A model generated the notes under the pieces. It was not told the origin of the DNA, ran no database searches, and was given only the letters and a program-made list of their open reading frames with translations. Source: Octopus sinensis (taxonomy: Eukaryota). Taken from it: a DNA stretch of 64,000 nucleotides. How positions within the stretch are numbered: the stretch's first letter is position 1; each line of letters starts with the position of its first letter. The stretch covers positions 8,710-72,709 of the forward strand of contig NW_021833757.1 of NCBI RefSeq assembly GCF_006345805.1, in the 5' to 3' direction. Positions 1-64,000 of this stretch are shown here, piece by piece. The position numbers and the translations under genes are program-made.

Positions 1-649
1 ATTCCCTTTTCGTGATTTGTGGTGTTTTATTCCATCAACCACACCCTCTTAGGGCTGACGTCCAGTGCACGGATATGCAGATTCATGTCAACGCGCAGTC
101 TTTAGCATTTTTACGTCAATTATGAACTTGAAATTTGTCAATTACAAACTTCTAATTGCACTTGAAAATTTCAAATTTACAATTTTGAAATTAAAGTTTG
201 CATCTTATCAAAATTTTGTATATAATAATTGTAATCATGTTATGGGAAACAGAACAAATCTTATTTGTTAAATCAAAAATCATAAAGGTCCTCTCCACGA
301 GTAACTCGGGGATCATACCTTTCAACCCGGTTAACAAATCGCATTAATATTTGTGGTGTGAAAACCTTTTTTGAGTCTCCTGCAATTTGTTCCAATATTC
401 TTAGCCTATATTCTGAAATTGGAATAATTTCTAATGAAATTAAATAATCTAAATTCTGACGATGAATGTCAATAAGAATTAATAGAACTAAAAACCACGA
501 AAAACTCAAAATAAAATTTGAAAATGTCCAATAAAATTAATTTGTACAGGGATTATGGCTTCAACCGACAAAATCCAAACTGTACAGGCAGTTCTTCCTT
601 TCATTTTTAAAGCCAAACTACTGAGGGCGTCGTTATTTCGATCTTCAAT

Positions 650-1939
650 TCACAAATTTTTTCAAAATTCGTGAAATAATATTTCGCTGCTTTAACCCAA
701 CTTCCCCATCTGCATAAATTAAGAAAAAGAATACCTAGTAATTACGACATCAGGTGGGTATCCAACATCCTTGAACAAATTACGACGTCTTCGGTTTTTT
801 ACTGTGGCAGCTTTAATGCTTGCAATTAAGCCATCTATTTCCGGATATGCAGACTTTATACGTAAAACCGTATTGTGTAACAAATGAGAAACATAAGTCA
901 AATGATGCATGTTGTTATACATGACCATTAAAGTTTTATCGCCTATTTATTTAGATACTTTTATATCACCAGAAATCATATAAGGAGCGGCATCTGAGAT
1001 TAACAGATAAAAATTGTCACGAATAATCTTCATTTTTCTAATGACGTCATCTATTATTTGGCAGATGATAGCAACATTGGCATGATTTTCCAGTGGTTTG
1101 CATTCAACCAAATAGGATTTTGTTGGAAAGCGAATGCTTCCAATTAGAATCACTACAAAACTTTTCCTTCGGATATCTGTTTCATCAATTATTATAAAAA
1201 TCTTTTCGTTTCTAAAAGTTAAAAAATAAACTTTAATACGTTAATCATTTTTCCAACTCATTTATCTTTTTTGTGCAAGAAATTTAACCGTAGTTCTGCA
1301 TGAAAATTCGGACGGAGTGTTAATGTTAAATGTTTTAAACATTTTTTTGATCGAATCATTTTTTAATTTGTATAGCGGGATGTTTGCTTATACAAAAGCT
1401 TCCGTGATCGTTTCTTTAACCGAATCTACTTTGATTGATTCAGTTAATGTTGTTTGAACTGAATCACATGAATGACCTACAATTGTATTACATTTATACG
1501 AATATTGTTCTGATGTTTTAAAGAAGAACGATGAGAATCGACTGAAAATGTTTTTGCACAGTTGACTTTGGATAAACAAAGAGAACAAAATAGAAGGCCA
1601 TCGTCAGCAATACAGAACTCATCTTTGAATTCTGAGACTATACGCTTGGCTTTCTTAAGCAACGAACACTTGGGTTTTGGCATCACTCAAAATACTATAT
1701 AGCGTGCTAAATTATTTTATTTAAATTAATTTATTATCATTTTATGGGTGGCATTAAAAAAATTTTAATGCAATTTAAATTAGCATTAAAAAAATTAGCA
1801 TTTAAAATTAAAAATAGCATTTATAGCATTTATAATGTATGTTTTTTTAACAAAATTAAAAAATAATTATTCCAAATTCAATTTTATATTAAATAAATAT
1901 AAAAAGTAAAAATAGCATTTTAGCACTTAAATTGCCCTA
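650..1939 (-). mobile_element. hAT-family DNA transposon, 5' end and degenerate transposase (BED-like zinc finger), 3'-truncated
   Basis: TAGGG terminus at 1939, AAATGCTA-like subterminal repeats, FCSLC...H...KH finger, IIDET, LISDAAPYM, HLLHN and TR|WGSW motifs; 25-nt intron at 710..734. Confidence 0.8.
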
Positions 1940-3643: not shown

Positions 3644-4604
3644 TTTGCCTTCTCCATAAAAATTCTATAAATGTATTAAGAGTATTTAATACCTGCAAAA
3701 TATGCACCCATGAAGTGACGTCCCCCTTTGTCTCTTATTGCGCCATTTTGCGCACCCCCACATTCTATATTTTCATAATTATTATCTGAACCTCTCAACA
3801 TTCTGTGCACCTGTGCTCGGATCTACAAAATTTCGTCTGCAAATTTATAAACGAATTATGGCCAACTGTAAGGTGCACATAAGCAAGAGCATTGAGATCT
3901 GGCGTTGAATAACCTATTAGCAAGAATATAGTAGAATTACCCTTCCATTTGTCAGTGTGTATCACTGATCCCGGTGCGATATTTTCCTGTATTGCGGCGG
4001 TTAGAGTTCTTTTGGAGCGATCTGGAACCATCTTGATGAAACAGTCTTTACTTCCACGACAGATTCCCTCAAACACCCATTGTTGAGGGAGAATCTGCAT
4101 TGTTTTTCCGTTTAGAAAACATGCATTTGTCAACTTGGACAACTTTGCCAATACCACCTAACAATCTAACACTAATACCAATCAGTGTGTTCGGACGATT
4201 TGCTAAATAATATGCGCAAACCTGGGAGTGAGACAAATTAAGAATTGTATGGCTGCTCCATTCCAGTTGACGCCGACACCACAAAATACTGTCGAAACTC
4301 CACATGTACATAAAGCATGACTGTAAGCTCACTTTCGTGCCTTCGAGCCACGTACCTAAAAATAAAGTACTCTCTTATACCGTTTCTAATAGAACTAAAT
4401 GTTCGACACCCACTTTTATAGCACACCCATGTTGTATTCTCCTGCTGTTGGAGAAGGGTCATAAAATGTCTGTTTTGACATTTTTTTCTTTGGGAAAGAT
4501 TCCAACCTCTTGAAGGAAGGCAACTGACTCCATTTCAGTACGGGAAGTTCATAGTCCTTCAGTTTTGCAAATTTTCGCATGTCAACTGTATCATTCATCT
4601 CCAC
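3644..4604 (-). mobile_element. Merlin (ISXO2/IS1595-like DDE) transposase, degenerate, copy 1
   Basis: VVQVD, QQWVF, VPDRS, PGSVIHTDKWKG, NFVDP, ERMWG, EFLWRR motifs after removing tiny introns. Confidence 0.88.
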
Positions 4605-7535: not shown

Positions 7536-8049
7536 GAATAGTTAAATTATAATTAGATTTTTGTAGGTGTTTATTTTACATTTAAAAAATCTTTTCATTA
7601 ACAATCTGATCAAACTTAAAGAGCTTGCATATATAGATTAAATTTTGTGCGATAGAATAATAATCAATCGAAAACAATGTATGCAGGTCAATTTCCGAAA
7701 TGTAATATCCGGATCTCAAACTGCAAAGAATAGCACTAACCAAAATTCAAAAGCACGTTTACATAAATTTATTATTTTATTTTTCTCAAAATACTTTAAT
7801 GAAATACTGTAATAAAGTAATTTAGGCGATTTCTCATCTTTGAATAATAAAGAGTTTAATTCTGATTGTTTAAAAATCAATTAAAAATTGCTTATAATTA
7901 TTATATATTCAAGGAGAAACGATCAAAGAGAAATGATCATCGGGAACGGACATAGCTATTCCAACGCGTATCAATAGTGATCTTGCGTGGGAATTGCCAT
8001 TCATCTTATCCTCTGCTGCTAATTAAATATTTATTAACACTTTTTAAAA

Positions 8050-13512: not shown

Positions 13513-14950
13513 TGTCACATGCCTGAGTGGTTATACTTTCGGACTTAGAAAAAAATTCAAAAAAAATATTTGAATTCTATTTCAAAATTTATTTTGCCAA
13601 GATAAATTGTCGCGAGCGCAGTGAGCGATCCATCAATGTCAATGATTGTCAAAAATAAAAATAATCTATTACATCAAAGTTAACTAAGGTCAATTATTGA
13701 CAATTAACAAAAGATAATTAACCATAATTTTAAGTCGAATTGAATTTCTTTAGTCGCCTTGAATGAACTTTCCTAATAGACCCAGCACTATCTTCGACTT
13801 GGACAAAATTGTTGGACAATTTTTTGACAATAGTTACTGGATCCCCATACGGATGTTCAAATTTCTTTAATAGAAGAGAAGGATTCGTCCCATAATCTTT
13901 TTTTATACGAACCTTTAAGTAATTAAGAATGGAATACAATATCTCCAACATCTAACTCATATTTTGATCGATGGACTCCCATCTTCCTATTCATTCTTCT
14001 ATAATATGAAGACTGCAAATTCATCCTCTTAAAATTAAACTGGTACTCATCATCTTTACTAATAAATAACAATAAAAAACCTTTATTATAAATGTCAGGA
14101 TTTTCTACAACTTCCAATTCTTCCATATCAAAACTTTTTGGATTTTCCTCAACACCTGATTCAACAACAGTGTTGAATCCAGGAATACCACGATATCTTT
14201 GGAATGGACTAACGCCTAGAAAATAAAAAAATGCAATTTACATGTCGATGAATGAGCTCTCTGATTGTATAAAAACACAGCCTTTCGAATGTGTTTTATC
14301 CACTCTTTTTTATCATCAGAAGCCATCAATTTGGATAAACTCCTTGTGATTGTCTGATTAAATCTTTCAACTATCCCCTGACTCTGAGGATTGTTCGGCC
14401 TTCCATGTATTTGATTAATTTTGAATTCTTCACATAAATTTGAAATATGAATATTTTTAAATTCTGTCCCGTTATCAGATTGCAAATATCTGCAGGGGCC
14501 ATAATCCATGAAAATGTCGTTTAATTTTTCAGCGACTTCAATTCCACTTTTATTTCTAAGATTCCTTGTGATGGCATATCTCGAATAGACGTCAATAACA
14601 GTCAACAACCAAGAAAATTGATCATTATCATTTACAAACCTTGGGAATAAGACAATTTTATACCTTTTTAGGTCAATCAGATCAATCTGAAATCTCTCAT
14701 TCGGTACATCCGCAAAAATATGACTTACGTCGTCATATTGTTTCAGTGGGACTGCAGACTGGCATATATATTGTTCCAGGAATCCTATCAATAGTTCCAT
14801 ATTTTTTGAATTTTCGAAGAAAATCTCCGATTGTCGATTTTGGAGTATTTAGATGATCTGCGATATCTTTTATCGTTCAATTTAACTCATAAAGAGCAAG
14901 AATCTTCCCTTTAATTATTTTATTTAACATTTGCTTATAAAACTAAAAAT
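13513..14950 (-). mobile_element. Ginger-like (KRBA2/SCAND3-type) DDE integrase transposon with introns
   Basis: RFQIDLID, IDVYSR, QSDNGTEF, PQSQGIVERFN; 24-nt (14640..14663) and 26-nt (14216..14241) introns; TGTCAC terminus at 13513; no RT or LTR nearby. Confidence 0.8.
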
Positions 14951-22780: not shown

Positions 22781-22927
22781 ATATATTTATAAAACAAAAT
22801 TATTCATTTTTTAATGGAAAACCTTCAAATATTTAAGAAATGTAGTAAATTTTTATATTATTGTTTCGATTAGTCATTACATGGATTTCTGTGTCACGAG
22901 ATAACCCGAATAATTAATGGAGAGTAC

Positions 22928-25168
22928 ATGCCTGAAAGTTGGTTTTACACTGGAATAACATATTTGATTCCTAAAAAAGATGATTGTAAGACCCCGAAGG
23001 ACTTACGTCCTATAACGTGTATGCCGACATTGTATAAACTTGTCACCAAATGTGTTAATGTTAAACTGGCTGATTTTGTCGAGGCATTTGGCCTAATTTC
23101 AGACAACCAACTTGGAACGAGGAAGTATTGTCAAGGCGCCAAGGAGCAAGCTCTCATTAACCAATGTTTGAACAAGGAGTACGGGAATGGCCTTTATTCT
23201 GCTTGGGTCGATGTGAAGAAAGCATATGACTCAGTTGATCATGATTTTTTGTTTCACGTTTTGGATTGTTCTGGAATCCCGCTTTGGATCGTAAACTTTG
23301 TGAAGAGCGTAGTTAAGAAGTGGGCAGTAAAGCTGCATATGGAAGGTAGAAGAATTGGATCAGTGAAGTTAAACCGAGGAATTTTACAGGGAGACTCATT
23401 GTCTCCTTTACTATTTGTTATGGTGTTAGATCCTCTAAGCAGGATCCTTAATTCCGTGTTTCCAAAACTTGAAATTAACCAGGAAGATCGCAATATGTTA
23501 ACATATTCTACTAATCATTTGCTATTTATTGACGATCTAAAAATATTTGCTCTCAAACAAGACACTTTACTCAAAATGATGGAAGCTGTTAACGGATTTT
23601 TTAAAATTGTTGGTTCAGAAAAATCAGCGTCTAATTTGGAATCATTATCATGTTGTAAGACTATTGACGGAATCAATAGATATCGGTATTTGGGTGTACT
23701 TGAAGATGGTGGAAGCAATGTTCTTAAGAATAGAGTTATGGACTCTATCTTTGAGAATGTTAAGAAGAGGATAACTATGCTATCGAAAACAAAACTCAAC
23801 TCTGTGAATCTGTTTCGTGCTATAAATGAATATGCATTGTCACTATATAATTATTATATTGGGCTAATCAATATTGAACCTTCTGAATTTGATGATATTG
23901 ACAGACAAATACGGCAATTGCTTACGTCGCTCAGATTACATCTCAAACCTGCAAATAAAGAGAGACTGTATTTAAACCGGAAGGCTCTTGGAAGAGGGCT
24001 TTCATCAGTTGCTTTCAAAAGTGAACTAATGCTCTTTCAGTTCCTTACGAGTCTGGAAAATATGTCAACTATATGCTTACGGAGGGCGGGGATTCTGCGT
24101 GTAATTAAAATGAATAAATGGCATTTGGCTATGATCGCAGGATTTCTATCCTCCAAATATGCAATTATTGATAAGAAGAGTATTACTATGGAGTCTCTAA
24201 AGTCCAGTCAGATACAATATTTACAAAAGAAAATTAGTTCTAAAGCACTACATTCTGTGCTTTTCAAATGTGTGGATGAACCTAATGTTGATTTACCTGC
24301 ATCCTCAGAATGGCTATCTAATGGAAATAATGGGCCACGAAGCGAAGCATTGTATTGTCTTTTGCAAGATCGAAACTTGTTCTTTGCATCCGCTGACTCA
24401 TTATGCAATCATTGTAAGAAAAGCAAGAAAACTGTTGACCACATGGCTACTCAGTGTGGTAAAATGCTCAACAGTGATTATCTCCGGAGACACAACGAAG
24501 TTGTGAAGTGTATTCACCTTAACTTGTGCCGAATGTATGGACTCAAAAAAGCAAGACGATTGAAGGGACATTCTGTTCAGTCAACACTGTCGACGGGAAA
24601 AGTTGAAATCAGGGTTGATTGTACAATTCTCACCGAAACAAAAGTAGAATATAACAAGCCAGATATCTTTGTCCACGACAAAGTCAGAAACGAAATAAAT
24701 CTGATTGAAGTGGGTATTACCTCACAGGATCGCCTCAAGCAAGTGGAGGTTGAAAAGTGTCACAAGTATGACCTATTGGCAAGTGAGCTTTCGCTTCTGT
24801 ATAGCTGTCAAGTAAAAATAATTCCTGTGGTTATGACATGGGATGGAGTTGTCTCGAAATGCTTCAAAAATTATATGAAGAAACTATCTATTGAAGCAGG
24901 AACGAGGACATACATCCAATCCGTTGTACTGAAAAGAACGCTCGAGAGTATGATGATCGAACACAAGCACGGAATGAAGGTATCTGGTGAAGAATACGCT
25001 TCTGCTTCCAACCGGTATGTGGAGATGGCATGCAAAAATGAAGACGACCCAATGAATGCTAAAGAAGATGCAATGGTTGAATCAGATGTGGTAGTGGGGA
25101 GTAAGAGGCAGCTGGAAGTAGACTCTTCTTCCAAGAGAAGGAGAGTGGATATCAGCGAGCTGGAGTGA
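22928..25168 (+). mobile_element. 5'-truncated R4/Dong-like element, 746-aa open RT-RLE ORF
   Basis: LRPITC, KAYDSV, GILQGDS, FIDD, CCHC and KPDI...IEVG motifs in one frame. Confidence 0.95.
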
Positions 25169-25477: not shown

Positions 25478-25599
25478 GTACTCTCAGCTTAAGATGAGAC
25501 CATAGGACAAAAAATTGGTTCCATAAATGTCGTGTATTTGCAAACGTGCCGTCATTATTACCAATTACGGATGTTTGATGAAGAGATTATTCAAACCAT

Positions 25600-25662
25600 A
25601 CAACTGTAATGGCCATCAGATATGCTGAAGGTATTGTCGTAGCTGTTGACAGCCGAATAACT
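25600..25662 (+). pseudogene. Proteasome beta-subunit N-terminal scrap
   Basis: TTVMAIRYAEGIVVAVDSRIT matches the catalytic-Thr beta-subunit signature; only about 21 codons. Confidence 0.6.
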
Positions 25663-26079
25663 CTGCCGGCCTTTAATTTATTTAACCTCATTCCCCATGA
25701 AATCAAGAGGAATTCTGCACGAAGAAAACCGACAGTCCTCCTATGGTCACACCATCAGTTAAAGAGTGAGTTAATCTCATATTATCTTCTTATAGTGGTG
25801 AGATTTTTGCGATCCAGGACGATGTGTGTGTCGTCGTCATGGGTGATTTGTATTCGATTGAAGCACACTAGCGGTGCATTTCTTGTGGTGTCCATTTCTT
25901 TTTGAAACTTAACCAAATATAAGAGCTATTCATCTGGTCAACGTGGCCGCTCTAATGGAGTCACCAGATCTGTATTTACATAAAAATCGCCCCACAATAG
26001 TCCCCCGGGGCAACACTCCTACGGCTACAAAGCCGGCAGATCCAAAACAATCACACCATTTCCAATCCAAAGAGTTGGA

Positions 26080-27387: not shown

Positions 27388-30240
27388 TTGGGTGAATTCC
27401 ACGTCACTTTCCGGCCTCTCTCGTTGGGTGTGCTCTTCTTGCTCTTCATTTCCTCCTTCTTATTTAAATGATGGTCACCACTCCGTCTCTCCTCCCTCTC
27501 TTGACAATCCTTCAGATCCATTTTTATTGGACTCTGAATCGGTCCTTAAATTGGTTCATGATTATCGTGTTTCTTTCCGCATTCCCATCCGAATCCCAAA
27601 ATCAGCCCGTATTTCGGTGGCCCTAAACCTTTCTTCTTTAATTGAGTCTGCCATTTCCGATCCATCCATTCATAATTGGAATCGTTTGTTTTTTTCCCAA
27701 CTTTTGCGTTGGGCTCCCCTGTTCGTCGCCCCGGTGCCGGTGCCTCTTTTGTTTCTCTTTTGAAAAAGAATATGAGTCAGTTTATGACTGGCTCTTTCGC
27801 TCCGTCTCCCTCTCATTTACCTTCTACCGCTAAGCCCTCGTCGAAGGACGGTTCTAAACGTTTACGGTCTCGGATTAACTCCTGCTTAATGTCGCATGAT
27901 GTCAGCGCGGCTGTTCGTCTCTTGTCATCTTCTGATTCTGTCCGTACAATCACCCCCGATGTTGTTCGCATTCTCAAGGAAAAGCACCCTATTGGAAAAC
28001 CAGTAACTTTTGATGTGGCCCAATCGTCCTGTTTTCCCTTTTCTGTTTCTCCCAAACAACTTTTGGACGCCTTAAACTCCTTTAGGGGTAACAGTAGTGG
28101 AGGTATCGACGGTCTCCGTCCTATTCATTTGAGAGACTTAATTTCCGCCAATGGGGATACCGGGAATCGCCTCTTGAATGCTTGCACTAACTTGTGCAAT
28201 TTATTCCTGAGCGGCAAAATTTCTGACCATGCTAGAATTCTGTTCTTTTCCGCGAATCTTACGGCCTTGGGCAAGAAAGATGGCGGTATCAGGCCTATCG
28301 CTGTTGGAAATGTCTTTCGCCGTTTATTTGCGAAAGTCTGTTGCAAGTCCGTTATTCCTTCTATTGGCGAGCAACTGCAGCCCATTCAGTTGGGTGTGGG
28401 TGTTCCTGGCGGTTGCGAGTCTTCTGTCCATGCCTGTCGTTGTTTTATTCACGGTTCTACTCGTTCCAATATTCCCCTTGCCTTATTGAAACTGGATGTA
28501 ACTAATGCTTTCAATTCTCTGGACCGTGGTCATATGTTGGAGGTCTGTCAAGACCGTGTTCCACACTTGCTTCCCTTTATATCGCTTTCGTACTCATTTC
28601 CATCACTTTTAATCGCCGGTGGTTCTTTCATTTTTTCGTCCTGTGGCGTCCAACAGGGGGATCCTTTGGGCCCATTACTGTTTGCTCTTGCAGTGGATGC
28701 CATTGCCCGCGTTAATGAATCGCCCCTTAATCTTTGGTATCTCGACGATTGCACCCTGGGCGGTCCGCCTGATGTTTTGCTAAAGGACTTAGCCAGACTA
28801 ATTCCGGCTTTATCCGACATTGGTCTGGTTATTAATTCAAGCAAGTCCGAGATTGTCAATCTCTCTGTTGAACCATCCCTGTTTAAGAACTCCTTCTCTC
28901 TTTTTTGCAAACTCCTTCCTGAGTTGAGACAGACACCTCTGTCTGATCTGGAAATTCTGGGGTCACCGATTCTCACCGACTCAGCTACTCGAATCCTCCT
29001 TGCCAAGAAAAATCTTATTGCATCTCTTTGTGAAAAACTTTCTGTCATTGATCCTCATCCTTCATTTTACATCCTCAAGAACTATCTTTTGATCCCAAAA
29101 ATTGTTTATATCCTGAGGAGCTCACCTTGTTTTTATGCAACCCAAATGCTGGAATCTTATGATTCCTTGGTTCGGAGGTCTGCGGAGAAAATTCTCAATG
29201 TGCATTTCGACGATATTGCCTGGTGTCAAGCTAAACTTCCTGTGAGTCACGGGGGTCTGGGCCTCCGTTCTAGTATGGATTTGGCTCTTCCTGCCTTTCT
29301 TTCTTCGGCGTCTGGATCATATCTTCTTGTCCAAAAGATTCTGGAAAAAACTACTGAATCATCGTTGGACTCTGATATTGATTCAGCCCTCGCTTTTTGG
29401 AAAGGCAATTTCTCTGAGGTCCCTTCCGATGTCTCTTCTCAGCGAGACTGGGACAAAATTCTCTGCCGTCGTTCTTCTACTGACTTGGAACCACTCCTCG
29501 ACCAACACAGACTGGCTTGTTTCCGATCCGCCTGTCAGCCATACTCAGGCTCCTGGCTGAATGTTCTCCCTTCTCCGCTTTTGGATACTGTCCTCGATAG
29601 GGATTCACTCCGTCTGGGTATCTGTAATCGCCTTGGACTCCCTGTCTGCAGACCTCATCCATGTCGTTGTGGGGATAAAGTTGACGCCTTTGGGCTACAT
29701 CCTCTGTCTTGTCGAATGAACGCCGGCCGATTTCCTCGGCACACCGAAATCAACAGTCTAATTCAGAAAGCTCTGGAAAGAGCTGGTTTCCCTTGTATTC
29801 TGGAACCGACGGGCCTTGTTCTTGATGATGCAAAACGTCCGGACGGCTGTACGCTGTTCGCTTTTGAATCCGGGAAACAGCTCGTTTGGGACGTCACCTG
29901 TTCCGACTCCTTCGTCAAGGGTGCCTTAAATGCTACGGCTTGTCGTCCCGGCTCGTCGGCCGAGAAGGCCGAATTTGCAAAACTATCGAAATATGTTGAT
30001 TTACTCGATCGATTTTGCTTTTGGGCAATTGCTGTCGAAACCTCCTGTGTTTTTGGGGCCAAGACGCTTGCCCATCTCAAGAAACTTGGCCGCTTGTGCA
30101 CCCACCGCTCCAGAGATCCGAGGGAATTTATATTCCTCATTCAGAGGATCTCGCTGGCTGTTTTACGCGGGAATTGTCTTTCAATCCTGCGAGCCAGTTC
30201 ATAATAGGTAGTTTTTTTTTTGTTGTTTTCGTTAATAAAC
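27388..30240 (+). mobile_element. Near-complete CRE-like retroelement (RT + CCHC + RLE)
   Basis: 842-aa ORF with RPIAVG, LDVTNAFNS, GVQQGDPLGP, YLDD, RPDG, WDVT; upstream frame (WVCSSC, RIPKSAR) is joined by one shift at a T-run near 27690. Confidence 0.95.
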
Positions 30241-30399: not shown

Positions 30400-30850
30400 A
30401 AGTTTATGGTTTCGCTTGTGCCATGTTTTTAACTATTTTTGTCGTTAGCCCTTTTCATCCTTTCCGTCGTCTTGCCCTCTTTCCGATTTCGTCCAGATCG
30501 TCTGCATCCTTCAATGTTCCCCAAGTACCTGCGTTGTACATCAGGACAGATCGGACAAATGCATCATATAATCGTAGGCGCATCTTAGTCGAAATTTGAT
30601 TTTTTCTCATTCAGATAGATTGAAGTTTTTTAAGTGCAATTGTTGATAATATTTTTTGTCTGGTAATATCTTCGGAATCGCCAAGAAGAGATCCGAGTTT
30701 TCGGACGTTTCGCCACTTCTCATCTATGCGAGTTGGCATACGTTCGATGGTAATTATTTCGGTTTTCTCTTCGTTGACTTTGAGTGACCATTTATCGAAA
30801 ATTGTTCTTGCTTTCTCCATAATAATTTCTATTAATTTCGGATCCTCAAC
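30400..30850 (-). mobile_element. RTE-like LINE 3' fragment
   Basis: WSLKVNEEKTE, KLGSLLG, RLYDAFV..VLMYN motifs; also present at 63690..64000. Confidence 0.75.
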
Positions 30851-31027
30851 GACGAATGCAAATGTTCATTTGGTACTGTTGCATTTCATCCTGCACGAAA
30901 ATAGCCTCTAAATGAATTAATGAAAATTTTTATGAATATTAGATCGAAAATTTAAAAAATTGCACTATGCCGAATTTGTAAATTTTATTCTAATTTTTTT
31001 TAAAAAATTTGAATTTTTTACCGGCTT

Positions 31028-31980
31028 GTGGAGATGAATGATACAGTTGTCATGCGAAAATTTGCTGAAGGACTATGAACTTCCCCGTACTGAAATGGAG
31101 TCAGTTGCCTTCCTTCAAGAGGTTGGAATCTTTCGTAAAGAAAAAAATGTCAAAACAGACATTTTATTACCCTTCTCCAACAGCAGGAGAATACAACATG
31201 GGTGTGTTATAAAAGTGGGTGTCGAACATATAGTTCTATTAGAAACGGTATAAGAGAGTACTTTATTTTTAGGTACGTGGCTCGAAGGCACGAAAGTGAG
31301 CTTACAGTCATGCTTTATGTACATGTGGAGTTTCGACAGTATTTTGTGGTGTCGGCGTCAACTGGAATGGAGCAGCCATACAATTCGTAATTGGTCTCAC
31401 TCCCAGGTTTGCGCATATTATTTAGCAAATCGTCCGAACACACTGATTGGTATTAGTGTTCCATTGTTAGGTAGTATTGGCAAAGTTGTCCAAGTTGACG
31501 AATGCATGTTATCTAAACGGAAAAACATGTTTTCTCCCTCAACAATGGGTGTTTGGGGGAATCTGTCGTGGAAGTAAAGACTGTTTCATCAAGATGGTTC
31601 CAGATCGCTCCAAAAGAACTCTAACCGCCGCAATACAGGAAAATATCGCACCGGGATCAGTGATACACACTGACAAATGGAAGGGTAATTCTACTATATT
31701 CTTGCTAATAGGTTATTCAACGCCAGATCTCAATGCTCTTGCTTATGTGCACCTTACAGTTGGCCATAATTCGTTTATAAATTTGCAGACGAAATTTTGT
31801 AGATCCGAGCACAGGTGCACAGAATGTTGAGAGGTTCAGATAATAATTATGAAAATATAGAATGTGGGGGTGCGCAAAATGGCGCAATAAGAGACAAAGG
31901 GGGACGTCACTTCATGGGTGCATATTTGCAGGTATTAAATACTCTTAATACATTTATAGAATTTTTATGGAGAAGGCAAA
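31028..31980 (+). mobile_element. Merlin (ISXO2) transposase, copy 2, six tiny introns
   Basis: GT-AG introns at 31248..31272, 31450..31470, 31685..31711, 31759..31788, 31834..31860 and 31932..31959 restore SIRNGTW, IG.IGKVVQVDE, WKGY, RNFVDP, ERMWG and AEFLWRR. Confidence 0.9.
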
Positions 31981-33255
31981 ATATTTTCATCAGTGTACAG
32001 CCTGTCCTACAAGTAGAGAACTAACCTAATAGTAGTGACTTGATCATTCTCCCCGGCTACATCGACTTTGCGGCAGACCAAGTGGTATGTCTAAAGTGTC
32101 ATTTCAGAACTTGAAAACCAATTTAATCAAAAAATAGTCCTAAATTGCCCATTCGTATCAACCCCAATGGACACGGTGACAGAGTCCCGAATGGCAATCG
32201 CCATGGCGTATTGACTGACCGACATTGGTAGTTGGAGGGGGGCATAGGCATAATCCACAACAACTGTCTGCCCGAGGAACAAGCCAGTCATGTCCGACTA
32301 GTCAAATCCTCCAAACAGGGCTTCATTATGAACCCAGTTGTCGTCTCCCCCAGCACTACTGTGGCAGATTACAAAATCCTGGTCAATAAACATGGCTTTT
32401 CTGGCTTCCCGGTGACACTTAATGGACGGTTGTTGGGCCTGGTGACTCAACGGGACATTGATTTGTGCTGTGTGTCCGACCAGACAAGGATGGAAGTGGT
32501 TTGCCTCGACTTGTCACTGCAGGTGATGACCCCCGGAGAGTCATTGGTCACTTCTAACGATGGGATCAACTTCCAAGACGCCTACAAGACCCTCCGAAAT
32601 GTAAAGAAAGGGAAACTCCCAATCGTCGACAAAGTGGACTGTCTGGTTGCACTGGTCGGGATCTATTTGTATCACTCAGGAGGTCAGTCACCCACTAATC
32701 CCCCAGTCATGGCTGTTGGTCGAGGACAGGCCAGTGCTGTGTACCACGTCAGTCAGTTGGCCAGACAATTCGGAGTGCCAGTCATTGCCGATGGGGGAGT
32801 CCAGTCCCCGGGACACATCGCCAAGGCAATTGCCCTGGGAGCCTCCACAGGTACCCCATTCAGCTACATGCACTAGTCATGATGGGATCCATGTTTGCTG
32901 CCACCTCCGAATCCCCCATCGAGTCTGCCCTCATCAACGACGTCAAAGTGAGGCCTTATCGCGGAATGGGGTCACTCGACGCCATGGAGTTGACCAAGGA
33001 TGTCCAGGCTCGATATTTATGGTTGGGGTATTACTCATCTTAGCCACGGGTCCTCCATTCAAGTGGCTCAGGGGGTTTCCGGCACAGTCCTCGACAAGGG
33101 ATCCGCCCATCTATTCCTCAAATATCTTTCACAGAGTTTAAAGCAGAGTCTTCAGGACATGGGAGGACTGTCCATTATACATTTTCCTTCTTACTGACGA
33201 GATCACTCGCCTCGAAGGAACACCTCACTATTCGGGAGATAATTTCTTAGTTGAG
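31981..33255 (+). pseudogene. IMPDH: IMP dehydrogenase pseudogene, copy 2, seven tiny introns
   Basis: Introns at 32013..32035, 32085..32107, 32208..32231, 32499..32522, 32683..32706, 32851..32876 and 33022..33043; deletion junction near 32655; no start codon. Confidence 0.93.
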
Positions 33256-33680
33256 AATATAAATATTTTAATTAATTAGGATGATGAATATTAATAATAC
33301 ACAAAGAATGGTCATATTTGTGTCATTTCCTGATATCTCAGCATATCACGTTGTCCCCACATTTGACTCATTGCAAGCTTGTATAAATAATATAAGAATT
33401 ACTCAGTCGGCACATAGCCTTGGTTTTCTGGTGGTTTTAGCAATACTGATGATGAAGTTCCTTTGGAATACACTAATACACTATGTTCGGGTATCTTGGA
33501 CCAAGTCGCTAACTTAAATGCGTAGGAAGGTTTGAATAAAAATTTAGGCAAAAAATTGTACTTTGGAAAAAATCGAATTGACGGACAAAGAATTTAATAA
33601 CGGAAATGGCTAAATTAATTACACATTGAATATTAGTGGTAGAAGAAAGAATGTTAATATTTGTGTCATTTCTTAATATC

Positions 33681-36600
33681 TAGGGCAATTTAAGTGCTAA
33701 AATGCTATTTTTACTTTTTATTTATTTAATATAAAATTGAATTTGGAATAATTATTTTTTAATTGTTAAAAAAACATACATTATAAATGCTATAAATGCT
33801 ATTTTTAATTTAAATGCTAATTTTTTTAATGCTAATTTAAATTGCATTAAAATTTTTTTAATGCCACCCATAAAATGATAATAAATTAATTTAAATAAAA
33901 TAATTTAGCACGCTATATAGTATTTTGAGTGATGCCAAAACCCAAGTGTTCGTTGCTTAAGAAAGCCAAGCGTATAGTCTCAGAATTCAAAGATGAGTTC
34001 TGTATTGCTGACGATGGCCTTCTATTTTGTTCTCTTTGTTTATCCAAAGTCAACTGTGCAAAAACATTTTCAGTCGATTCTCATCGTTCTTCTTTAAAAC
34101 ATCAGAACAATATGCGTATAAATGTAATACAATTGTAGGTCATTCATGTGATTCAGTTCAAACAACATTAACTGAATCAATCAAAGTAGATTCGGTTAAA
34201 GAAACGATCACGGAAGCTTTTGTATAAGCAAACATCCCGCTATACAAATTAAAAAATGATTCGATCAAAAAAATGTTTAAAACATTTAACATTAACACTC
34301 CGTCCGAATTTTCATGCAGAACTACGGTTAAATTTCTTGCACAAAAAAGATAAATGAGTTGGAAAAATGATTAACGTTAAAGTTTATTTTTTAACTTTAG
34401 AAACGAAAAGATTTTTATAATAATTGATGAAACAGATATCCGAAGGAAAAGTTTGTAGTGATTCTAATTGGAAGCATTCGCTTTCCAACAAAATCCTATT
34501 TGGTTGAATGCAAACCACTGGAAAATCATGCCAATGTTGCTATCATCTGCCAAATAATAGATGACGTCATTAGAAAAATGAAGATTATTCGTGACAATTT
34601 TTATCTGTAATCTCAGATGCCGCTCCTTATATGATTTCTGGTGATATAAAAGTAAAAAACAGCTGTTCTTCTTGTGGTGAGGTGAGTGAGCGAAATATAA
34701 TGAAAGAAGAAGACTCCAAGACGATGGAAACTCTTCGGATAGTTGGGAGGGATCCCTCTATCTGTTATGGGTGTAATAAGATCAACACCAGGAAATGTGG
34801 CGTTTACTGCTCAATGTGTAATAAATTCTGGCATATTAGCTGCGCGCACCTTACCAAAGCCGCAGTGAAATTACTCCGGCGCTGGAGCTGCCACTGTTGT
34901 ATGGCTTTACTCCGAATCTCGGCTTCGCAGCATCAGTCTCCTTCGCTTCATGAACCCAAATCAGAACACTATATTCTCAAAATTTCCAACTTACGGAAAT
35001 CTAAGAAGATACCTTTACGTATCCCTAAACAGGCTCGGATCTCAGCGGCAAACTGCTTGTGCGATCTTATCACTGATGCGCTAAGCTCCGGGGGGGACCA
35101 TTCTTGGATCCGTCTCCTCTCTTTTGCACCTTGTGTGTTTGGACAAGCAATTGATGGTTCAGTACAAAAGAAGAGTCTCTCGGCTGCCATTAAGTCGAAC
35201 TCTGCGAGATTGGATGTCTCATGGATTGATTTCGATTGTGAAGCGACCAATTTCCAAACGTGCATCACGGAAAAATCCCCCCAGTGGTTCAAAACCCAAG
35301 TTAGTCGTAAACTCATGGATGGCGACATCCGTGCGGCAGTTCGGGTCCTTTCGTCCGCTGATTCACTTGCTGAATCTACTGCCGAGACTTTGGAACACCT
35401 CAAAAACAAACATCCGATGCCCCCAGATGACTTACGGGAGTTTCCCACACGAGACAATGCAATTATACTGTCAATTTCTGATGATGAAATTTTGGAAGGG
35501 ATTAAATCTTTCAGACCGAGTAGCAGTGGGGGATTTGATGGTCTCCGGCCGAGTCATATAAAGGACATGATTTCCCGATTGACTATGGAGACTGGAATCC
35601 GCCTGATCAAGTGTATTACCAAGCTTGTCGAACGGATTGTCAATGCTGAGATTTCAGGCTTTGCAAGGGATCTACTTTTCTGTTCACACCTTATTGCTTT
35701 CCGAAAGAACGATGGAGGAGTCCGCCCCATTGCAGTCGGTAATGTCTTCCGGAGGCTCGCATGCAAAATTGCAGCCCGAAGAGTCTGTCCCCGTGTTGCC
35801 GCTGAATTATCTCCAGTCCAACTGGGAGTTGGTGTTTCCAACGGATGTGAAGCTGCTGTCCACGCGACAAGAGCTTTTTTTTCACCTGACACAAGACATT
35901 CCCCAAATTCCTTTGCGGTGAAGCTGGATATCTCAAACGCGTTCAACAGTCTGAGAAGGGACTGTATGGAATCGTGCTCGCAGCGTACCCCAGAGATCAT
36001 GAGTCTGGCTCACCTTGCTTACGGGTCCGAAAGTTCGCTTGTCTTTGACAAACACATTGTCCGTTCACGGACTGGAGTCCAACAAGGTGACCCTCTTGGC
36101 CCTTACTATTCGCTCTGTCAATCGACGAGGTGGCTCGTAATGTAAAGACACCTCTCAACCTTTGGTACCTTGACGATGCCACTATTGGTGGCCCTGTTGA
36201 TGTCGTCTTGGATGAGTTATATAAAATTGTTCCTGCCCTGGCAAAAATGGGGCTGATAATCAACACCAAAAAACTGAGATCATAAATATCTCAGTCCCAA
36301 TTCAAGACTTTGGCTTAGTAATGGAAAAGATTTCAGAAATCTTGCCAGACACAAAACAAACACGCCTCAACGATGTTTATTTTCTTGGGTGTCCTTTCGG
36401 AGAGTCCGAAGTGCAAAACCACCTCAGAGCTAAGAGTGTCGAAATGTCCCGTTTTACTGAACGCCTCTCTCTACTCGACTCCCACACGGCCTTTTTCCTC
36501 CTCAAAAATTGCATCCACGTGCCCAAACTGTTATATTTATTGAGATGCTCGCCCTGCTTTATACAAGATGAAATATTGCATTCTATCGATGATACGTTAA

Positions 36601-37995
36601 GATTGTGTGCCGAGTGGATCCTAAATGTCCGTTTCGATAATGATGGGTGGACCCAGTGTAAACTACCTCTTAATTCTGGCGGAGCTGGCCTAAGATCCGC
36701 CCTGGACCTTGCCCTCCCAGCTTTCCTGTCCTCTCACTCATCCTGCCGAAGGCTATCCTTGGAGATTCTACATAAATCCCCCGAATCTTCTTGGACAGGC
36801 CTTTTGAAGATGGATGTATGCTGTGGAAGGAATCAGGATTAAAATTCCCGATCCAACATCACTCCAACAGAGCTGGGACAAATTACGCTGCGAATTCACC
36901 GCAGACAACCTGGCAATGAGGCTCGACCAGCACCGCCTCGCCTGCTTACGCTCTGCAGCTGTGCCACACAGTGGGTCATGGCTGAATGCTATGCCAATTG
37001 CTGGCCTCGGAACATTATTAGAGGATGACTGCATGCGTATCGGTACTGCACTGAGACTCGGACTTGACATCTGCGAACAACATCGTTGTAGATGTGGAAA
37101 AATGGTTGACGTCAAAGGTGTACACCCACTCTCTTGCAAACGAAGTGCTGGCCGAGCTCCTCGGCACTCCGCTATTAACAATGTTATCTTAAGAGCTCTT
37201 GAGTCGGCGGGCTTCCCCTCGATCCTAGAGCCAGTGGGCTTAGATCGTGGAGATGGGAAAAGACCCGATGGAATGACCACTTTTCCCTACTCCTGTGGAA
37301 AATCGTTGGTTTGGGATTCAACGTGTGTTGACACCCATTCCAAAACTAATATGATCTCTTCTGCTGTTTCTCCAGGTTCTGCAGCAGATGCTGCAGAGCA
37401 AAGAAAAATTGCCAAATACGCAAATCTTGGACAACGGTACCGCTTCGTACCTATCGCTGTGGAGACTTCTGGGGTAACCGGCCCTCTTACGACTTCTTTC
37501 ATCAGAGAAGTCGGAGGAAAAGTTGCTAGGCGACGTGGGAGCCTCGAGAAGTGTCATGGTTATTCCAACAAATTGGAATAGCTGTCGTTCGCGGCAATGC
37601 ACACTCCATCATGCGTGCAACCGCAAGTGCCTTTTAATCATTGACTAACTTATTTCAAAATTAAAAAAAAAAAAAAAAAAAAAATATAAAAGTATTAAAT
37701 AAATAGGCGATAAAACTTTAAGGGTCATGTATAACAACGGCATCATTTGACTTAGTTTTCTAATGTTACACAATACGGTTTACGTATAAAGTCTGCATAT
37801 TCCGGAAAAGATGGCCTAATTGCAAGCATTAAAGCTGCCACAGTAAAAAACCGAAGACGGTCGTAATTTGTTCAAGGATGTTGGATACCCACCTGATGTC
37901 GTAATTACTAGGTATTCTTTTTCTTAATTTATGCAGATGGGGAAGTTGGGTTAAAGCAGCGAAATATTATTTCACGAATTTTGAAAAAATTTGTG
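33681..37995 (+). mobile_element. hAT transposon, copy 2, interrupted by CRE
   Basis: TAGGG terminus at 33681; introns at 34116..34138 and 37912..37936; same sequence as 650..1939. Confidence 0.82.
34655..37683 (+). mobile_element. Young, probably full-length CRE-like element (PHD + RT + CCHC + RLE)
   Basis: 11-bp TSD ATATAAAAGTA (34644..34654 and 37684..37694), long pure poly(A), empty site at ~956..966; a few frameshifts. Confidence 0.96.
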
Positions 37996-39570: not shown

Positions 39571-39689
39571 TTGACTGTTCAAAAAGTTAAAGACAAAGTA
39601 TTGTGGCTGATAAAATTGCAGGAGTAATTAATTAATGTGTTTATTGCCAGGTAAATTTTAATTCTATAATGCTAGACTAAAAAATTAAT

Positions 39690-40050
39690 GGCGACTAAGC
39701 CGAAAATAACGTAAATCATCGCACGTAGGGCTAGAGATAGATGTCTCGCAGATCTCATTGATCTTTGCAGATATTCTGAATTTAACGATAAATTCTCTTG
39801 GGTATTTTGGATGAAATTATTAATTTAAAGATTTTTGTAATAGTTGATTCCTTTTCAAAATATGTAGTCGAATTATCAAATTTGAAATTAGCGGTAATAA
39901 TGTAGCTAATCTTTTCCAAAATGTTTTTTATTATATCGGACCACTAATCATCCTCCATACAGAAAATGGTAAATAATTTTGTAATTCTTAAATCTACGAA
40001 GTCTGTGAAAAATATTTAATCGAGCATTGCGTAATAGGTCAAGTAGAGAG
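39690..40050 (+). mobile_element. Ginger-like integrase debris
   Basis: RARDRCLADLIDL, VDSFSKY, ILHTENG motifs. Confidence 0.6.
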
Positions 40051-40169
40051 GTTACCAGTTGACTTTAATTTATAAAGGTTCAACCAAAGCATAAAAGGGG
40101 GATATCTTCAGCAAGTGTCTTTCGTGGATATTTTGGCCGATATTGTTTATGATTACAATAATACCATAC

Positions 40170-40591
40170 GCTTAAAACCGGAAAAGTTTCGTTCCGAAGA
40201 GGCGACATAAGTCGAGATGCAAGCATCTTACGACTTCATTGTGTCTCTTCGTGTACTCACAATTCAATATTCTGTTGCATCGTGTAGCGAGGTGGTCGAC
40301 TGACTTCTTAGCCAGTTTGTAGTGAGGACAATATACATCTAGTTCTGACCAGAACAGATTTTTATCTTGCAGTAAGCAATATAGACCCTCACTCCTTGGG
40401 CTTATATTGTCTTTCTGCAACCACAAAGAGGATTCTTTAATATCGGAATGAATGTTTTTGTTGCATTTGTAAAGTGATGAATGTAAACTTTTCGTTTCGA
40501 TTATATCAATGAAGTATTTGAGTTGAATTTCCTTTAAATTTTTTTACGTTGATTTCATTGTTATATTTGGTGTATTTATGCTTTAAGTAGT
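40170..40591 (-). mobile_element. R4/Dong-like internal fragment
   Basis: SPRSEG..LLQD, VDHLATRC, KRHNEV motifs. Confidence 0.88.
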
Positions 40592-46994: not shown

Positions 46995-48720
46995 TTTATT
47001 CAGATTTGCATTTGTCATAACTAGGGATGATAAAGTTAATAAAGTTAAATTTTAATATTTTAAATAAAAATTAAATAAAAACTGTTTTTATATTATTTTT
47101 AAACGTTCTATCTTTATATTTTAAAAAATTATAAAGTTAAAAAGTTAAAAAAATAAATCGTAAGGTTAAATTTTTTTAACTTTATTTTATTTAATTATTT
47201 CAACAAATTATTATTATACGATTAAATAAATATTAAACAGCGTGTAAATTACAAGTTTTTGTTGTATGCAGCGTACTTCTAAGTCTTATCTAACTAAAGC
47301 AAAATTAATTGTCAACGAATTCCCAAAGGAATTTCAGTTAAATAACAACGATGAATTGTTTTGTAAACTATGCTTAACAACATAAAGTGCTCGAAAAAGC
47401 ATTTTGTTAACCTCCACAGGATATCAAAGAAACATAAGACTTTAGTTGGTAAGGATTTTTCGATAATATATCTTTTTCATGTTAATTGCGTTACCCATAT
47501 TTTGCATAATTGTTCAATGGAGGTCAGAAAATCTTATCCAGAAGTTGATGATGTGATAGCTAGCGTGCATGCTTCTGTCAGGAAGAACCACAAGCGAAAA
47601 TTGTTGTTTTACGAAATTGGAATTCCTCCGAAAGTTGTGTTGACGAGATGGGGCACCTGGTTAAAGGCTGCATCTTTTTATTCAAGAAATTTAATCTCAG
47701 TGATTAACATTTTTGATTTGATTGAGGACGAAGGAATACTAGTGACTGCCACCAAAAATGCATTGAAAAGTGAAAAACTAGTAAAAAGCTTATGTGCAAT
47801 TTCGCATAACTATTCACATATTCCAGGTTTTTCATATAGTAATTAATCTCATAGAGAAAATATTACAACTTGAAAGTAACGAATGTACAATAGAATTTGC
47901 ATATTCGACGTTAAGTACACTTGACTTGTGGAATGATGAAGCAGGGATCAAAAAATATTTAGAGAAGAGAATTTTAGAGAGCGATATGACTAAAATTATT
48001 AATATGGATAATAAAAATATCTCTCCGGAAGATTATTCGTTACTTCAAAATTGTCAACCATCCTCGGCATCTATCGAACGATGCTTTTCGCAATTTAGGA
48101 GTTTTATGAGGGCATACAGAAACTTTGCTACACAAAATTTGGAAAATTATGTTATGTCCATTTTCAATAAATAGTCTTTAAAGTATTTTATTGTTTCTTA
48201 TTTATACTTTACAGGTTTAACCTGAGAATAAATAAAGTTTAATTTTTTTAATTTTAAGGTTAAAAATTTTGGTTTATAGGTTAATAAAGTTAACTTTTTA
48301 AGGTTAAATTTTTCAATTTTTAAGGTTAAAAAATGTTGGCCCTAGTCATAACACTTGTTCATCAATCTTCAAAAGAAGTATGCAACAACTTAAGATCGCT
48401 TTTCTAGACCTTGCAAAATTTTGCAATCAGATAATACTTCAGAATTCAAAAATGTGTCTCTGAGAAATCCAAGCGAAGAGTTCAACGTAGTTCAGATACA
48501 TGGAAGACCAAAAAATTCGCCTACACAGTGGATTGTAGAACTTGTTAAACAAATGATCACCCGAAAACTTTCCAAAATTATGTAAACAGGTAAAAAAGTG
48601 ACTATGGATTTTGAAAAATGGAGTGTACTATTATAACAAGGCTGTACACTCATTTTCAAAATAGAGACCTTTCGAAAGATATCGTGCGGAATAAACACTG
48701 TTGTTGCAGATTATAAATTT
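46995..48720 (+). mobile_element. Ginger-like integrase debris split by hAT
   Basis: RFAFVIT|LV joins across the TSD; KILQSDN.SEFKN and HGRP motifs downstream. Confidence 0.6.
47022..48344 (+). mobile_element. Complete-ended, internally deleted hAT transposon
   Basis: TAGGG...CCCTA termini, 8-bp TSD GTCATAAC (47014..47021 and 48345..48352), A(A/G)GTTAA subterminal arrays, CVTH, TRWGTW and SSASIERCFS motifs. Confidence 0.93.
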
Positions 48721-62550: not shown

Positions 62551-64000
62551 AGTTTTCCTTCTTTACATATCGGAGGGTCTTGTAGGCGTCTTGGAGGTTG
62601 ATCCCGTCGTTAGAAGTGACCAATGACTCTCTGGAGGTCATCACCTGCAGTGGCAAGTCGAGGGCAACCACTTCCATCCTCGTCTGGTCGGACACACAGC
62701 ACAAATCATGTCCCGTTGAGTCACCAGGCCCAACAACCGTCTATTCAGTGTCACCGGGAAGCCAGAAAAGCCATGTTTATTGACCAGGATTTGTAATCTG
62801 CCACAGTAGTGCTGGGGGAGACGACAACTGGGTTCATAATGAAGCCCTGTTTGGAGGATTTGACTAGTCGGACATGACTGGCTTGTTTCTCGGGCAGACA
62901 GTTGTTGTGGATTATGCCTATGCCCCCCTCCAACTACCAATGTCGGTCAGTCAATACCGCCATGGCGATGGCGATTACAAATTTATAAACGAATTATGGC
63001 CAACTTGTGATTAACTGTAAGGTGCACATAAGCAAGAGCATTGAGATCTGGCGTTGAATAACCTATTAACAAGAATAAAGTAGAATTACCCTTCCATTTG
63101 TCAGTGTGTATCACTGATCCCAGTGCGATATTTTCCTGTATTGCAGCGGTTAGAGTTCTTTTGGAGCGATCTGGAACCATCTTGATGAAACAGTCTTTAT
63201 TTCCACGACAGATTCCCCCAACCACCCATTGTTGAGGAAGAATCCGTCCTGCTAAAAATAAAGTACTCTCTTATACCGTTTCTAATAGAACTATATGTTC
63301 GACACCCACTTTTATAACACAACCATGTTGTATTCTCCTGCTGTCGGAGAAGGGTAATAAAATGTCTGTTTTGACATTTTTTTTCTTTGAGAAAAATTCC
63401 AACCTCTTGAAGGAAGGCAACTGACTCCATTTCAGTACGGGGAAGTTCATAGTCCTTCAGTTTTGCAAATTTTCGCATGACAACTGTATCATTCATCTCC
63501 ATAAGCCGGTACAAAATTCAAATTTTTAAAAAAAAAATTAGAATAAAATTTACAAATTCGGCATAGTTCAATTTTTTAAATTTTCGATCTAATATTCATA
63601 CAAATTTTCATTAATTCATGTAGAGGCTATTTTCGTGCAGGATGAAATGCAACAGTACCAAATGAACATATATACTTGATTTTATTACGGAGGATCCGAA
63701 ATTAATAGAAATTATTCTGGAGAAAGCAAGAACAATGTTCGATAAATGGTCACTCAAAGTCAACGAAGAGAAAACCGAAATAACCACCGTCGAACGTATG
63801 CCAACTCGCATGGATGAGAAGTGGCGAAACGTCCGAAAACTCGGATCTCTTCTTGGCGATTCCGAAGATATTACCAGACAAAAAATATTATCAACAATTG
63901 CACTTAAAAAACTTCAATCTATTGGATGAGAAAAAACCAAATTTCGACTAAGATGCGCCTACGATTATATGATGCATTTGTCCGACCTGTTCTCATGTAC
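62551..64000 (-). repeat. Copy 3 of cassette (RTE scrap, Merlin 62977..63514, IMPDH 62551..62975) with private deletions
   Basis: Reverse complement of 30535..32615 with deletions near 63250 and 62977; runs off the window end. Confidence 0.93.

What the first reader, a model, noticed from the sequence alone, without database searches (positions are those of the whole stretch)
31248..31959. DNA transposases colonised by 21-30-nt introns, with position differences between paralogues: candidate intron-gain process
Seen: the Merlin ORF has six GT-AG introns (25, 21, 27, 30, 27, 28 nt) in ~0.7 kb, hAT has 23- and 25-nt introns, and the Ginger-like integrase has 24- and 26-nt introns; I found none in the retroelement ORFs. 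The intron splitting TR|W at 37912..37936 is absent from the paralogous TRWGTW at ~47643. Several introns have short direct repeats across both junctions (GGTA at 31247 and 31272, GGTA at 31449 and 31470, AAGGT at both ends of 14640..14663). Inference: the tiny introns were gained in these elements, perhaps by duplication or repair at (A)G|GT sites, and splicing could act as a host control on transposase expression.
Basis: partly seen in the sequence, partly recalled or inferred. Interest (0 to 1): 0.75.

Follow-up and report, generated by a model that had tools for sequence, protein, structure and literature searches.

The report
Parasite transposons that gained tiny introns
A broken Merlin jumping gene here is split by six 21-30-base GT-AG inserts that are likely introns of the size normal for its likely owner, a dicyemid parasite whose DNA is mixed into a mollusc assembly; related transposon families likely gained such introns long ago and later lost some, and the short repeats at the junctions are no more common than at the parasite's ordinary introns.

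Summary
The six Merlin inserts are real: they fall exactly where intron-free homologues have gaps, and a young sister family (copies 99.3-99.8% identical) gives an intact 281-aa frame only after five such inserts are removed. The window is not from the main genome. It belongs to a second, co-assembled animal, likely a dicyemid, whose tubulin, HSP70, chaperonin and IMPDH genes carry 22-33-nt introns too, so the size is ordinary. Across Merlin, hAT-like and Ginger2-like families I mapped 30 intron positions; intron-bearing clades sit among intron-free relatives and carry lineage-specific positions such as TR|W, which favours gain inside this lineage. The gains are old: 0 new GT-AG insertions in 205 copy alignments, and the only recent polarised event is an exact loss of two adjacent introns. 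Junction repeats match a permutation null (p=0.45) and host-gene introns, so the duplication mechanism is not supported. Retroelements lack introns. No RNA evidence was obtained; host control is untested. The scan noted this before on other DNA of this genome.

The parts
30872..30896 (+). Outer 25 nt of the Merlin 5' terminal inverted repeat (starts GG)
   Evidence: Shared start of family copies; its reverse complement ends full-length copies L006-L008, two of which have 8-bp target duplications
31052..31979 (+). Merlin (DDE_Tnp_IS1595) transposase pseudogene, family A; 3 frameshifts, 3' end missing
   Evidence: Pfam PF12762 over cut-off; spliced alignment to P0001-P0006; ATG at 31052
31248..31272 (+). 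Intron a, 25 nt, phase 1; in all five well-sampled intron-bearing families
31450..31470 (+). Intron b, 21 nt here (26 nt in less decayed copies), phase 1
31685..31711 (+). Intron c, 27 nt, phase 1; families A, B, E; absent in C, D
31759..31788 (+). Intron d, 30 nt, phase 2; 5' boundary damaged in this copy; exactly absent in L018
31834..31860 (+). Intron e, 27 nt, phase 2; families A, B, C, D; absent in E, H; exactly absent in L018
31932..31959 (+). Intron f, 28 nt, phase 1; families A, B, E
31999..33170 (+). IMPDH gene fragment fused to the Merlin 3' end, with six predicted 22-26-nt introns: in-window control that tiny introns are not transposon-specific
   Evidence: Pfam IMPDH/CBS; spliced alignment to E. 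coli GuaB
3645..4548 (-). Second Merlin copy, part of an inverted segmental duplication (1-4685 vs 30946-38635, 97-99% identical)
63013..64000 (-). Third, partial Merlin copy
   Evidence: self-alignment
33932..34636 (+). 5' half of a hAT-like (DUF659) transposase with introns 34116-34138 (23 nt) and about 34358-34382; interrupted by a retroelement
37912..37936 (+). TR|W intron, 25 nt, phase 2; found only in this hAT-like lineage (19 of 19 probe matches carry it)
646..1683 (-). Duplicate hAT-like transposase with four predicted introns (1477-1499, 1231-1257, 943-969, 710-734)
47376..48162 (+). hAT-like transposase of another lineage; unbroken TRWGTW at 47643-47660; own intron at 47827-47854 (28 nt)
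13748..14767 (-). Ginger2/Tdd-like integrase (group G1) with introns 14640-14663 (24), 14216-14241 (26), 13913-13937 (25)
   Evidence: Pfam rve
39609..40240 (+). Ginger-like integrase of group G4 with a different intron set (39651-39675, 39802-39830, 40051-40077)

Best explanation
The window holds DNA transposons whose transposase genes are split by 21-34-nt GT-AG inserts that are likely spliceosomal introns, likely gained long ago inside a tiny-intron animal parasite (likely a dicyemid) that was assembled together with a mollusc host. Shown: inserts sit at gaps against intron-free homologues; all genes sampled from these contigs have inserts of the same size; intron-bearing families form clades with shared and lineage-private positions; recent copies show no new introns and one exact double loss; retroelements have none. 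Inferred: because cut-and-paste elements copy as DNA, they keep any intron that arises, so long-resident families picked up introns at AG|G-like (proto-splice) sites, shaped to the host spliceosome's ~26-nt norm; occasional recombination with a reverse-transcribed spliced mRNA would remove adjacent introns; retroelements, which copy through spliced RNA, would shed theirs. The birth mechanism of each intron is no longer readable in the sequence.
For: Second organism: 0 of 60, 0 of 150 and 0 of 150 best matches to the window's Merlin, hAT and Ginger lie on the 30 chromosome-scale contigs; a second 18S (1,667 nt, 45% GC, vs about 2,600 nt, 64% GC) whose flanks share repeats with these contigs; a second compact chaperonin and HSP70 set; beta-tubulin 94-95% identical to animal tubulins; molluscan haemocyanin on C5 and C28. 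Host-gene introns: median 25 nt, n=67; transposon introns median 26 nt, n=84; published Dicyema median 27 bp, GC 36.7% (PMC6543705, PMC6736024). Merlin: intron-bearing families are one clade (100/99) among 26 rows without these introns. hAT-like: intron-bearing clade 96/90 with three shared introns, plus three positions each private to one lineage. Ginger-like: five groups with mostly different sets, one position shared by G1, G2, G5. Function: family E needs five non-3n introns removed for a stop-free 281-aa frame, longest unspliced ORF 143 aa; exons diverge mainly at third codon positions (C vs D 0.72/0.85/0.41). Loss: L018 lacks d and e exactly.
Against: No RNA read was seen, so splicing is inferred. 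Outside homologues were found as single ORFs by gene callers, which cannot return intron-bearing relatives and may include transcripts, so the intron-free ancestral state is biased. Merlin's three main branches are unresolved and intron e needs either several losses or a parallel gain. The hAT clade support is moderate and its internal order weak. The taxon rests on indirect evidence; no dicyemid reference sequence was matched.
Confidence: 0.72

Rival explanations
1. Inherited and shrunk: the elements entered this lineage already carrying introns; the introns shrank with the rest of the genome, and differences between families are all losses.
For: Ginger transposases elsewhere have 0-4 introns (PMC2836005, passages); loss prevails in CACTA transposases (PMC4158355); the one recent polarised event is a loss; core positions are shared by families only 45-52% identical.
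Against: It needs about 8 losses against 3 gains for the three lineage-private hAT positions on the tree, and a Ginger ancestor with about 18 introns in 1.3 kb. All outside relatives seen, and 34 chromosomal-type Merlin segments (4 calls vs 4 and 7 in controls), are intron-free.
Confidence: 0.15
2. Ongoing gain by local duplication or break repair at (A)G|GT sites, with splicing acting as a host brake on transposase.
For: Exon flanks are enriched for proto-splice bases: G before the intron at 72% of 30 positions vs 19% background, AG at 43% vs 6%. Lineage-private positions exist (TR|W follows AG).
Against: Host-gene introns show the same enrichment (63% vs 27%, 31% vs 8%; Fisher p 0.26-1.0); repeats do not exceed a permutation null (p=0.45); 0 of 9 insertions of 15-60 nt in 205 copy alignments are GT-AG; intron-rich families with copies over 99% identical multiplied recently.
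Confidence: 0.07
3. An introner-like mobile element seeded the introns.
For: Best cross-position similarity was slightly above shuffled (mean 5.97 vs 5.41, max 14 vs 11); one Merlin/Ginger pair looks alike. Introners are a known route of mass gain (PMC9860276, listing only).
Against: The similar pairs are short AT-rich strings; no family of near-identical introns, no terminal repeats; even same-position introns are unalignable between older families.
Confidence: 0.04
4. The inserts are decay or alignment artefacts in dead copies, not introns.
For: The window copy is a pseudogene and no spliced read was seen.
Against: GT..AG ends and positions are kept across families whose intron interiors are unalignable; 630 of 690 probe matches keep intact ends; GT-AG mode removes most frameshifts that control modes leave (hAT 2 vs 19 and 15).
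Confidence: 0.02

Closest known systems
Dicyemid ultra-short spliceosomal introns (Dicyema japonicum, Dicyema sp., D. acuticephalum; PMC6543705, PMC6736024, PMC2222250, PMC13644364)
   Same: GT-AG introns of median 25-27 nt, narrow range, about 4-7 per kb of coding sequence here; weak GT(A/T)...AG signals; repeat-rich genome of about 37% GC.
   Different: Those papers describe host-gene introns at conserved positions; in the passages searched, 'transpos' does not occur in PMC6543705 and occurs nowhere at word start in PMC6736024. Here the introns are in mobile elements at positions without a known ancestral counterpart.
Merlin/IS1016 superfamily (PMC8101967)
   Same: DDE_Tnp_IS1595 domain, about 290-aa transposase, TIRs with terminal GG, 8-bp target duplication.
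   Different: Three to six tiny introns per gene; the words intron and exon occur 0 times in the main text of that survey.
Intron gain and loss in CACTA transposases (PMC4158355) and intron-bearing Ginger1 transposases (PMC2836005)
   Same: DNA transposases with family-specific intron sets; exact in-frame losses attributed to reverse transcription.
   Different: In CACTA loss prevails with one putative gain; here about 30 positions in three superfamilies, with parsimony favouring many gains, all at minimal intron size.
Intron gain in domesticated transposon genes (PMC3369469)
   Same: Uses an intron-free transposon ancestor to polarise gains.
   Different: Here the elements are still multicopy and mobile, not domesticated single genes.

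Membership tests
Merlin/IS1016 | DDE_Tnp_IS1595 transposase domain | tested here: met
   PF12762, 29.5 bits over cut-off 27; 41-46% identity to PF12762 proteins
Merlin/IS1016 | TIRs of 24-462 bp with terminal 5'-GG (PMC8101967) | tested here: met
   Family A ends GG...CC, matching over 25 nt; family E imperfect TIR of about 146 bp. The window copy keeps only the 5' TIR.
Merlin/IS1016 | 8- or 9-bp target site duplication | tested here: met
   8-bp duplications around L006, L007 and L267; not seen for L008, L269, L275; others lacked one end
hAT-like (DUF659 type) | Short TIRs, 8-bp target duplication, DUF659-type transposase | tested here: met
   TAGGG...CCCTA ends with 8-bp duplications in L103, L109, L110, L173; DUF659 match below Pfam's cut-off (26 vs 34.7 bits). 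That 8-bp duplications and DUF659 mark hAT is recalled.
Ginger2/Tdd | Gypsy-like rve integrase with H2C2 finger, TGT termini, TIRs, 4-5-bp AT-rich duplication, no RT (PMC2836005) | tested here: met
   rve and Integrase_H2C2; TGT...ACA, 44-bp TIR, 5-bp AT-rich duplication in L117 and L118, element about 1.6 kb. No tree with named Ginger2 elements was possible.
U2-type spliceosomal introns | GT-AG ends whose removal restores the reading frame | tested here: met
U2-type spliceosomal introns | Removal seen in RNA | tested here: inconclusive
   No RNA holder listed; four same-label runs gave no cover
Dicyemida (source organism) | Animal with genome-wide introns under 30 nt, found with a cephalopod host | tested here: met
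   Intron sizes, animal tubulin, mollusc main genome; only dicyemids and myxobolids are known to have such introns (PMC13644364). That the mollusc is a cephalopod rests on a recalled 18S trait and on one public hAT-like relative labelled as from an octopus (P0159).
Dicyemida (source organism) | Direct sequence match to a named dicyemid gene or 18S | not testable with these tools
   No named dicyemid sequence was returned; published primers found were universal
Introners | Families of near-identical introns at unrelated sites | tested here: not met
   151 introns compared; no cluster beyond AT-rich chance pairs; sample is small

The most novel reading that the evidence does not exclude
Despite extreme genome reduction, the dicyemid lineage had a general, strong intron-gain process that brought intron-free invaders (Merlin, hAT-like, Ginger2) up to host intron density at proto-splice sites, so that a transposon family's intron count records how long it has lived in the lineage; intron-free families on the same contigs would be late arrivals. 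This would overturn the view of dicyemid exon-intron structure as merely conserved and shrunk, and give dozens of polarised gains of minimal introns.
Probability: 0.4. Interest if true: 0.65.

Novelty: new variant of a known kind. Interest (0 to 1): 0.45.

Why it matters
How new spliceosomal introns arise is an open question, and clean cases need an intron-free ancestor. Three transposon superfamilies with about 30 mapped positions, some private to one lineage, plus an exact double loss, make a natural test set in an animal with some of the shortest introns known. Its value is limited because the gains are old and the junction signal is gone. Practically, it shows that a large set of unplaced contigs of this assembly is a parasite genome, and that transposases in such genomes are invisible to ORF-based annotation.

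Tried and rejected
RNA: no RNA holder listed; four same-label contig runs laid on 30800-33300 gave no cover; this is no evidence either way, and no further RNA test was obtained. Junction-repeat mechanism: rejected by permutation and by host comparison. Ongoing gain: not seen in 205 alignments, 183 kb, some loci redundant. Introner origin: not supported. Recent transfer from the mollusc host's Merlins: not supported; host elements are 34-45% identical and branch apart. Naming the parasite by tubulin homologues or by published primers failed. Intron positions of Ginger elements in other animals are given only in a figure (PMC2836005) and could not be compared. The first DNA alignment mixed strands and was redone. 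Rows dropped: 24 of 42 Ginger intron calls seen in single copies or the variable linker; 6 of 73 host calls from L302 judged doubtful; host calls with weak flanking alignment or outside 20-36 nt; one hAT call (L150 h2) with uncertain boundary. Literature searches that found no report of introns in dicyemid transposons or Merlin; the library lacks most subscription papers (the 2004 Merlin paper and Ogino 2010 were not seen), and supplements of the Dicyema genome papers were not read.

Full report
Observation. The surrounding frame matches the Merlin/IS1595 domain. I wrote a spliced protein-to-DNA aligner that models only the two terminal dinucleotides and a length window, and ran it with six single-ORF homologues. 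It placed four introns with 6 of 6 references, intron b with 2 of 6, and intron d only in better-kept relatives; control dinucleotides scored lower with every reference. The window copy is dead: three frameshifts, an 11-nt deletion at the start of intron d, a 5-nt deletion in intron b, and a 3' end replaced by an IMPDH fragment. It lies in a local inverted duplication.

Whose DNA. G000 is 2.72 Gb with 30 chromosome-scale contigs; the window is on unplaced C10228. The best matches to its Merlin DNA (60), hAT exon (150) and Ginger exon (150) are all on unplaced contigs. The assembly holds two 18S types: about 2,600 nt and 64% GC on chromosomes, and 1,667 nt and 45% GC on C1618, whose flanks share repeats with the window-type contigs. 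It holds a second, compact set of chaperonin and HSP70 genes on those contigs. Their beta-tubulin is 94-95% identical to animal tubulins, and the main genome carries molluscan haemocyanin. Tubulin, HSP70, chaperonin and IMPDH genes of the second organism carry introns of 22-33 nt, median 25 (67 calls kept of 73). Among animals only dicyemids and myxobolids are reported with such introns (PMC13644364, parts 1-2 of 3 read); Dicyema has a median of 27 bp (PMC6543705, passages), 36.7% GC and 49% repeats (PMC6736024, passages), mean 26.2 nt with cDNA support (PMC2222250, passages). The window is 37.8% GC. Dicyemids live in cephalopod kidneys, so I put the dicyemid reading at about 0.85; no direct match to a named dicyemid was possible. 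The small size of the transposon introns (median 26, n=84) is therefore the local norm.

Are they introns. Family E of Merlin has copies 99.3-99.8% identical; in 2 of 2 full-length copies checked, removing five inserts of 26, 22, 26, 23 and 26 nt gives 281 aa with no stop or frameshift, while the longest unspliced ORF is 143 aa. Between families, exons change mostly at third codon positions while intron interiors become unalignable and their GT..AG ends and positions persist. In six hAT loci, GT-AG mode left 2 frameshifts against 19 and 15 in control modes. Splicing was not seen in RNA. Retroelements gave 11 calls in 75.6 kb, equal to controls (11, 7), against 4.2 and 2.6 per kb for intron-bearing Merlin and hAT loci.

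Gain or loss. Merlin: families A and B have a-f, C and D have a, b, e, and E has a, b, c, d, f. They form one clade (100/99) with three unresolved branches 45-52% identical; the other 26 rows of the tree, including chromosomal host elements and two families (F, G) on the same small contigs, lack these introns. So the six positions arose on the stem or early in the clade, and some were lost again. L018, nested among A and B, lacks d and e to the base while keeping a, c and f: an exact loss of adjacent introns, the pattern expected from recombination with a reverse-transcribed spliced mRNA (mechanism inferred; compare PMC4158355, abstract and section 22 read). hAT-like: intron-bearing families form a clade (96/90) among 41 outside proteins and two intron-poor groups from the same contigs; all share three introns, and three further positions are each private to one lineage, TR|W among them. 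Three gains are simpler than about eight losses. The 47.6-kb paralogue is a different lineage with its own private intron. Ginger2-like: five groups 27-53% identical carry mostly different sets, 18 positions kept of 42 calls, with one shared by G1, G2 and G5 and two by G2 and G5; positions in the conserved core are stable within G1 down to about 50% identity. A caution applies throughout: outside relatives come from single-ORF gene calls, so intron-bearing relatives could not appear.

Is gain continuing. Across 205 alignments of copies to 28 family references (at least 80% identity, 183 kb), none of 9 insertions of 15-60 nt was GT-AG; 1 of 47 deletions was an exact intron loss, in L018. Junction probes gave 630 intact, 48 mutated, 6 shortened and 6 exactly absent of 690; four of the six are L018 counted twice and two are cross-matches to an intron-free family.

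Junction repeats. Mean repeat length across both junctions was 1.88 nt for 84 transposon introns, against 1.87 when introns were shuffled among sites (p=0.45); repeats of 4 nt or more: 10.7% vs 10.5%. Host-gene introns gave 1.67 (per-position comparison p=0.43). Flanks are enriched for proto-splice bases over coding background in both sets, with no difference between them. The GGTA and AAGGT repeats are thus the G|GT...AG|GT consensus, not a duplication scar. No introner-like family was found among 151 introns.

Host control. Nothing here tests it. Intron-rich families have multiplied recently with intact target duplications, so splicing has not blocked them.

Known and new. Merlin, hAT-like and Ginger2/Tdd membership tests are met at family level. 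Introns in DNA transposases are known (PMC2836005 and PMC3369469, passages; PMC4158355), as are dicyemid micro-introns. I found no paper on introns in Merlin or in dicyemid transposons (searches; PMC8101967 has no occurrence of intron), within a library that lacks most subscription papers. The scan's earlier notes on other contigs of this genome reached the same general reading; I had formed it before looking, and two of them mention spliced forms in public contigs, which I could not check. Verdict: a real feature, a new variant of known kinds, moderately interesting as a test set for intron gain.

Noticed in passing
G000 unplaced contigs (e.g. C1794, C8702, C6303, C9497, C12467; 18S on C1618 = L071): A large part of a second animal genome, likely dicyemid, with contigs up to 1.3 Mb, is inside this mollusc assembly; it has its own tubulin, HSP70 and chaperonin sets.
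   Followed up: partly
L018 (G000:C12605:286054-286944): Merlin copy lacking two adjacent introns exactly while keeping those on both sides: a candidate cDNA-mediated partial intron loss and indirect sign of germline splicing.
   Followed up: yes
window 31999-33170, 2200-3700 (-), 62551-62976 (-); L002, L003: A Merlin-IMPDH fragment junction is repeated in several places, apparently by segmental duplication; the IMPDH fragment has internal deletions.
   Followed up: partly
L059, L069, L061 (Merlin F, G); L168-L175, L182, L195 (hAT-like); L217 (Ginger G6): Intron-free or nearly intron-free transposon families share contigs with intron-rich ones; they may be late invaders or fully retro-processed lineages. 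L164/L186 and L217 may carry one intron each.
   Followed up: partly
L006, L007, L008: Three Merlin family A copies share an internal deletion of about 135 nt covering introns d and e with exon sequence, yet keep both TIRs: a non-autonomous sub-family.
   Followed up: no
family A, B and hAT copies generally: Decaying copies show many more short deletions than insertions (47 vs 9 of 15-60 nt), a deletion bias that could help keep introns short.
   Followed up: no
intron sets: Transposon introns are more AT-rich (0.79 vs 0.64) and less often phase 0 (8 of 30 vs 33 of 67) than the host-gene sample.
   Followed up: no
L221, L224-L227, L237, L318, L321: The parasite has several near-identical alpha- and beta-tubulin copies; beta-tubulin copies differ by one intron (position 245).
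   Followed up: no
window 10530-11579, 19445-25165, 27676-30201, 34595-37600, 56931-59571: Many non-LTR retroelement ORFs with RT domains, several nested in or beside DNA transposons; one splits the hAT copy at 34.6-37.6 kb.
   Followed up: partly
window 7085-7546 (-), 25582-25902 (+), 43351-43698 (+): Weak Pfam matches to a PHD finger, a proteasome subunit and a C2H2 zinc finger; not annotated further.
   Followed up: no
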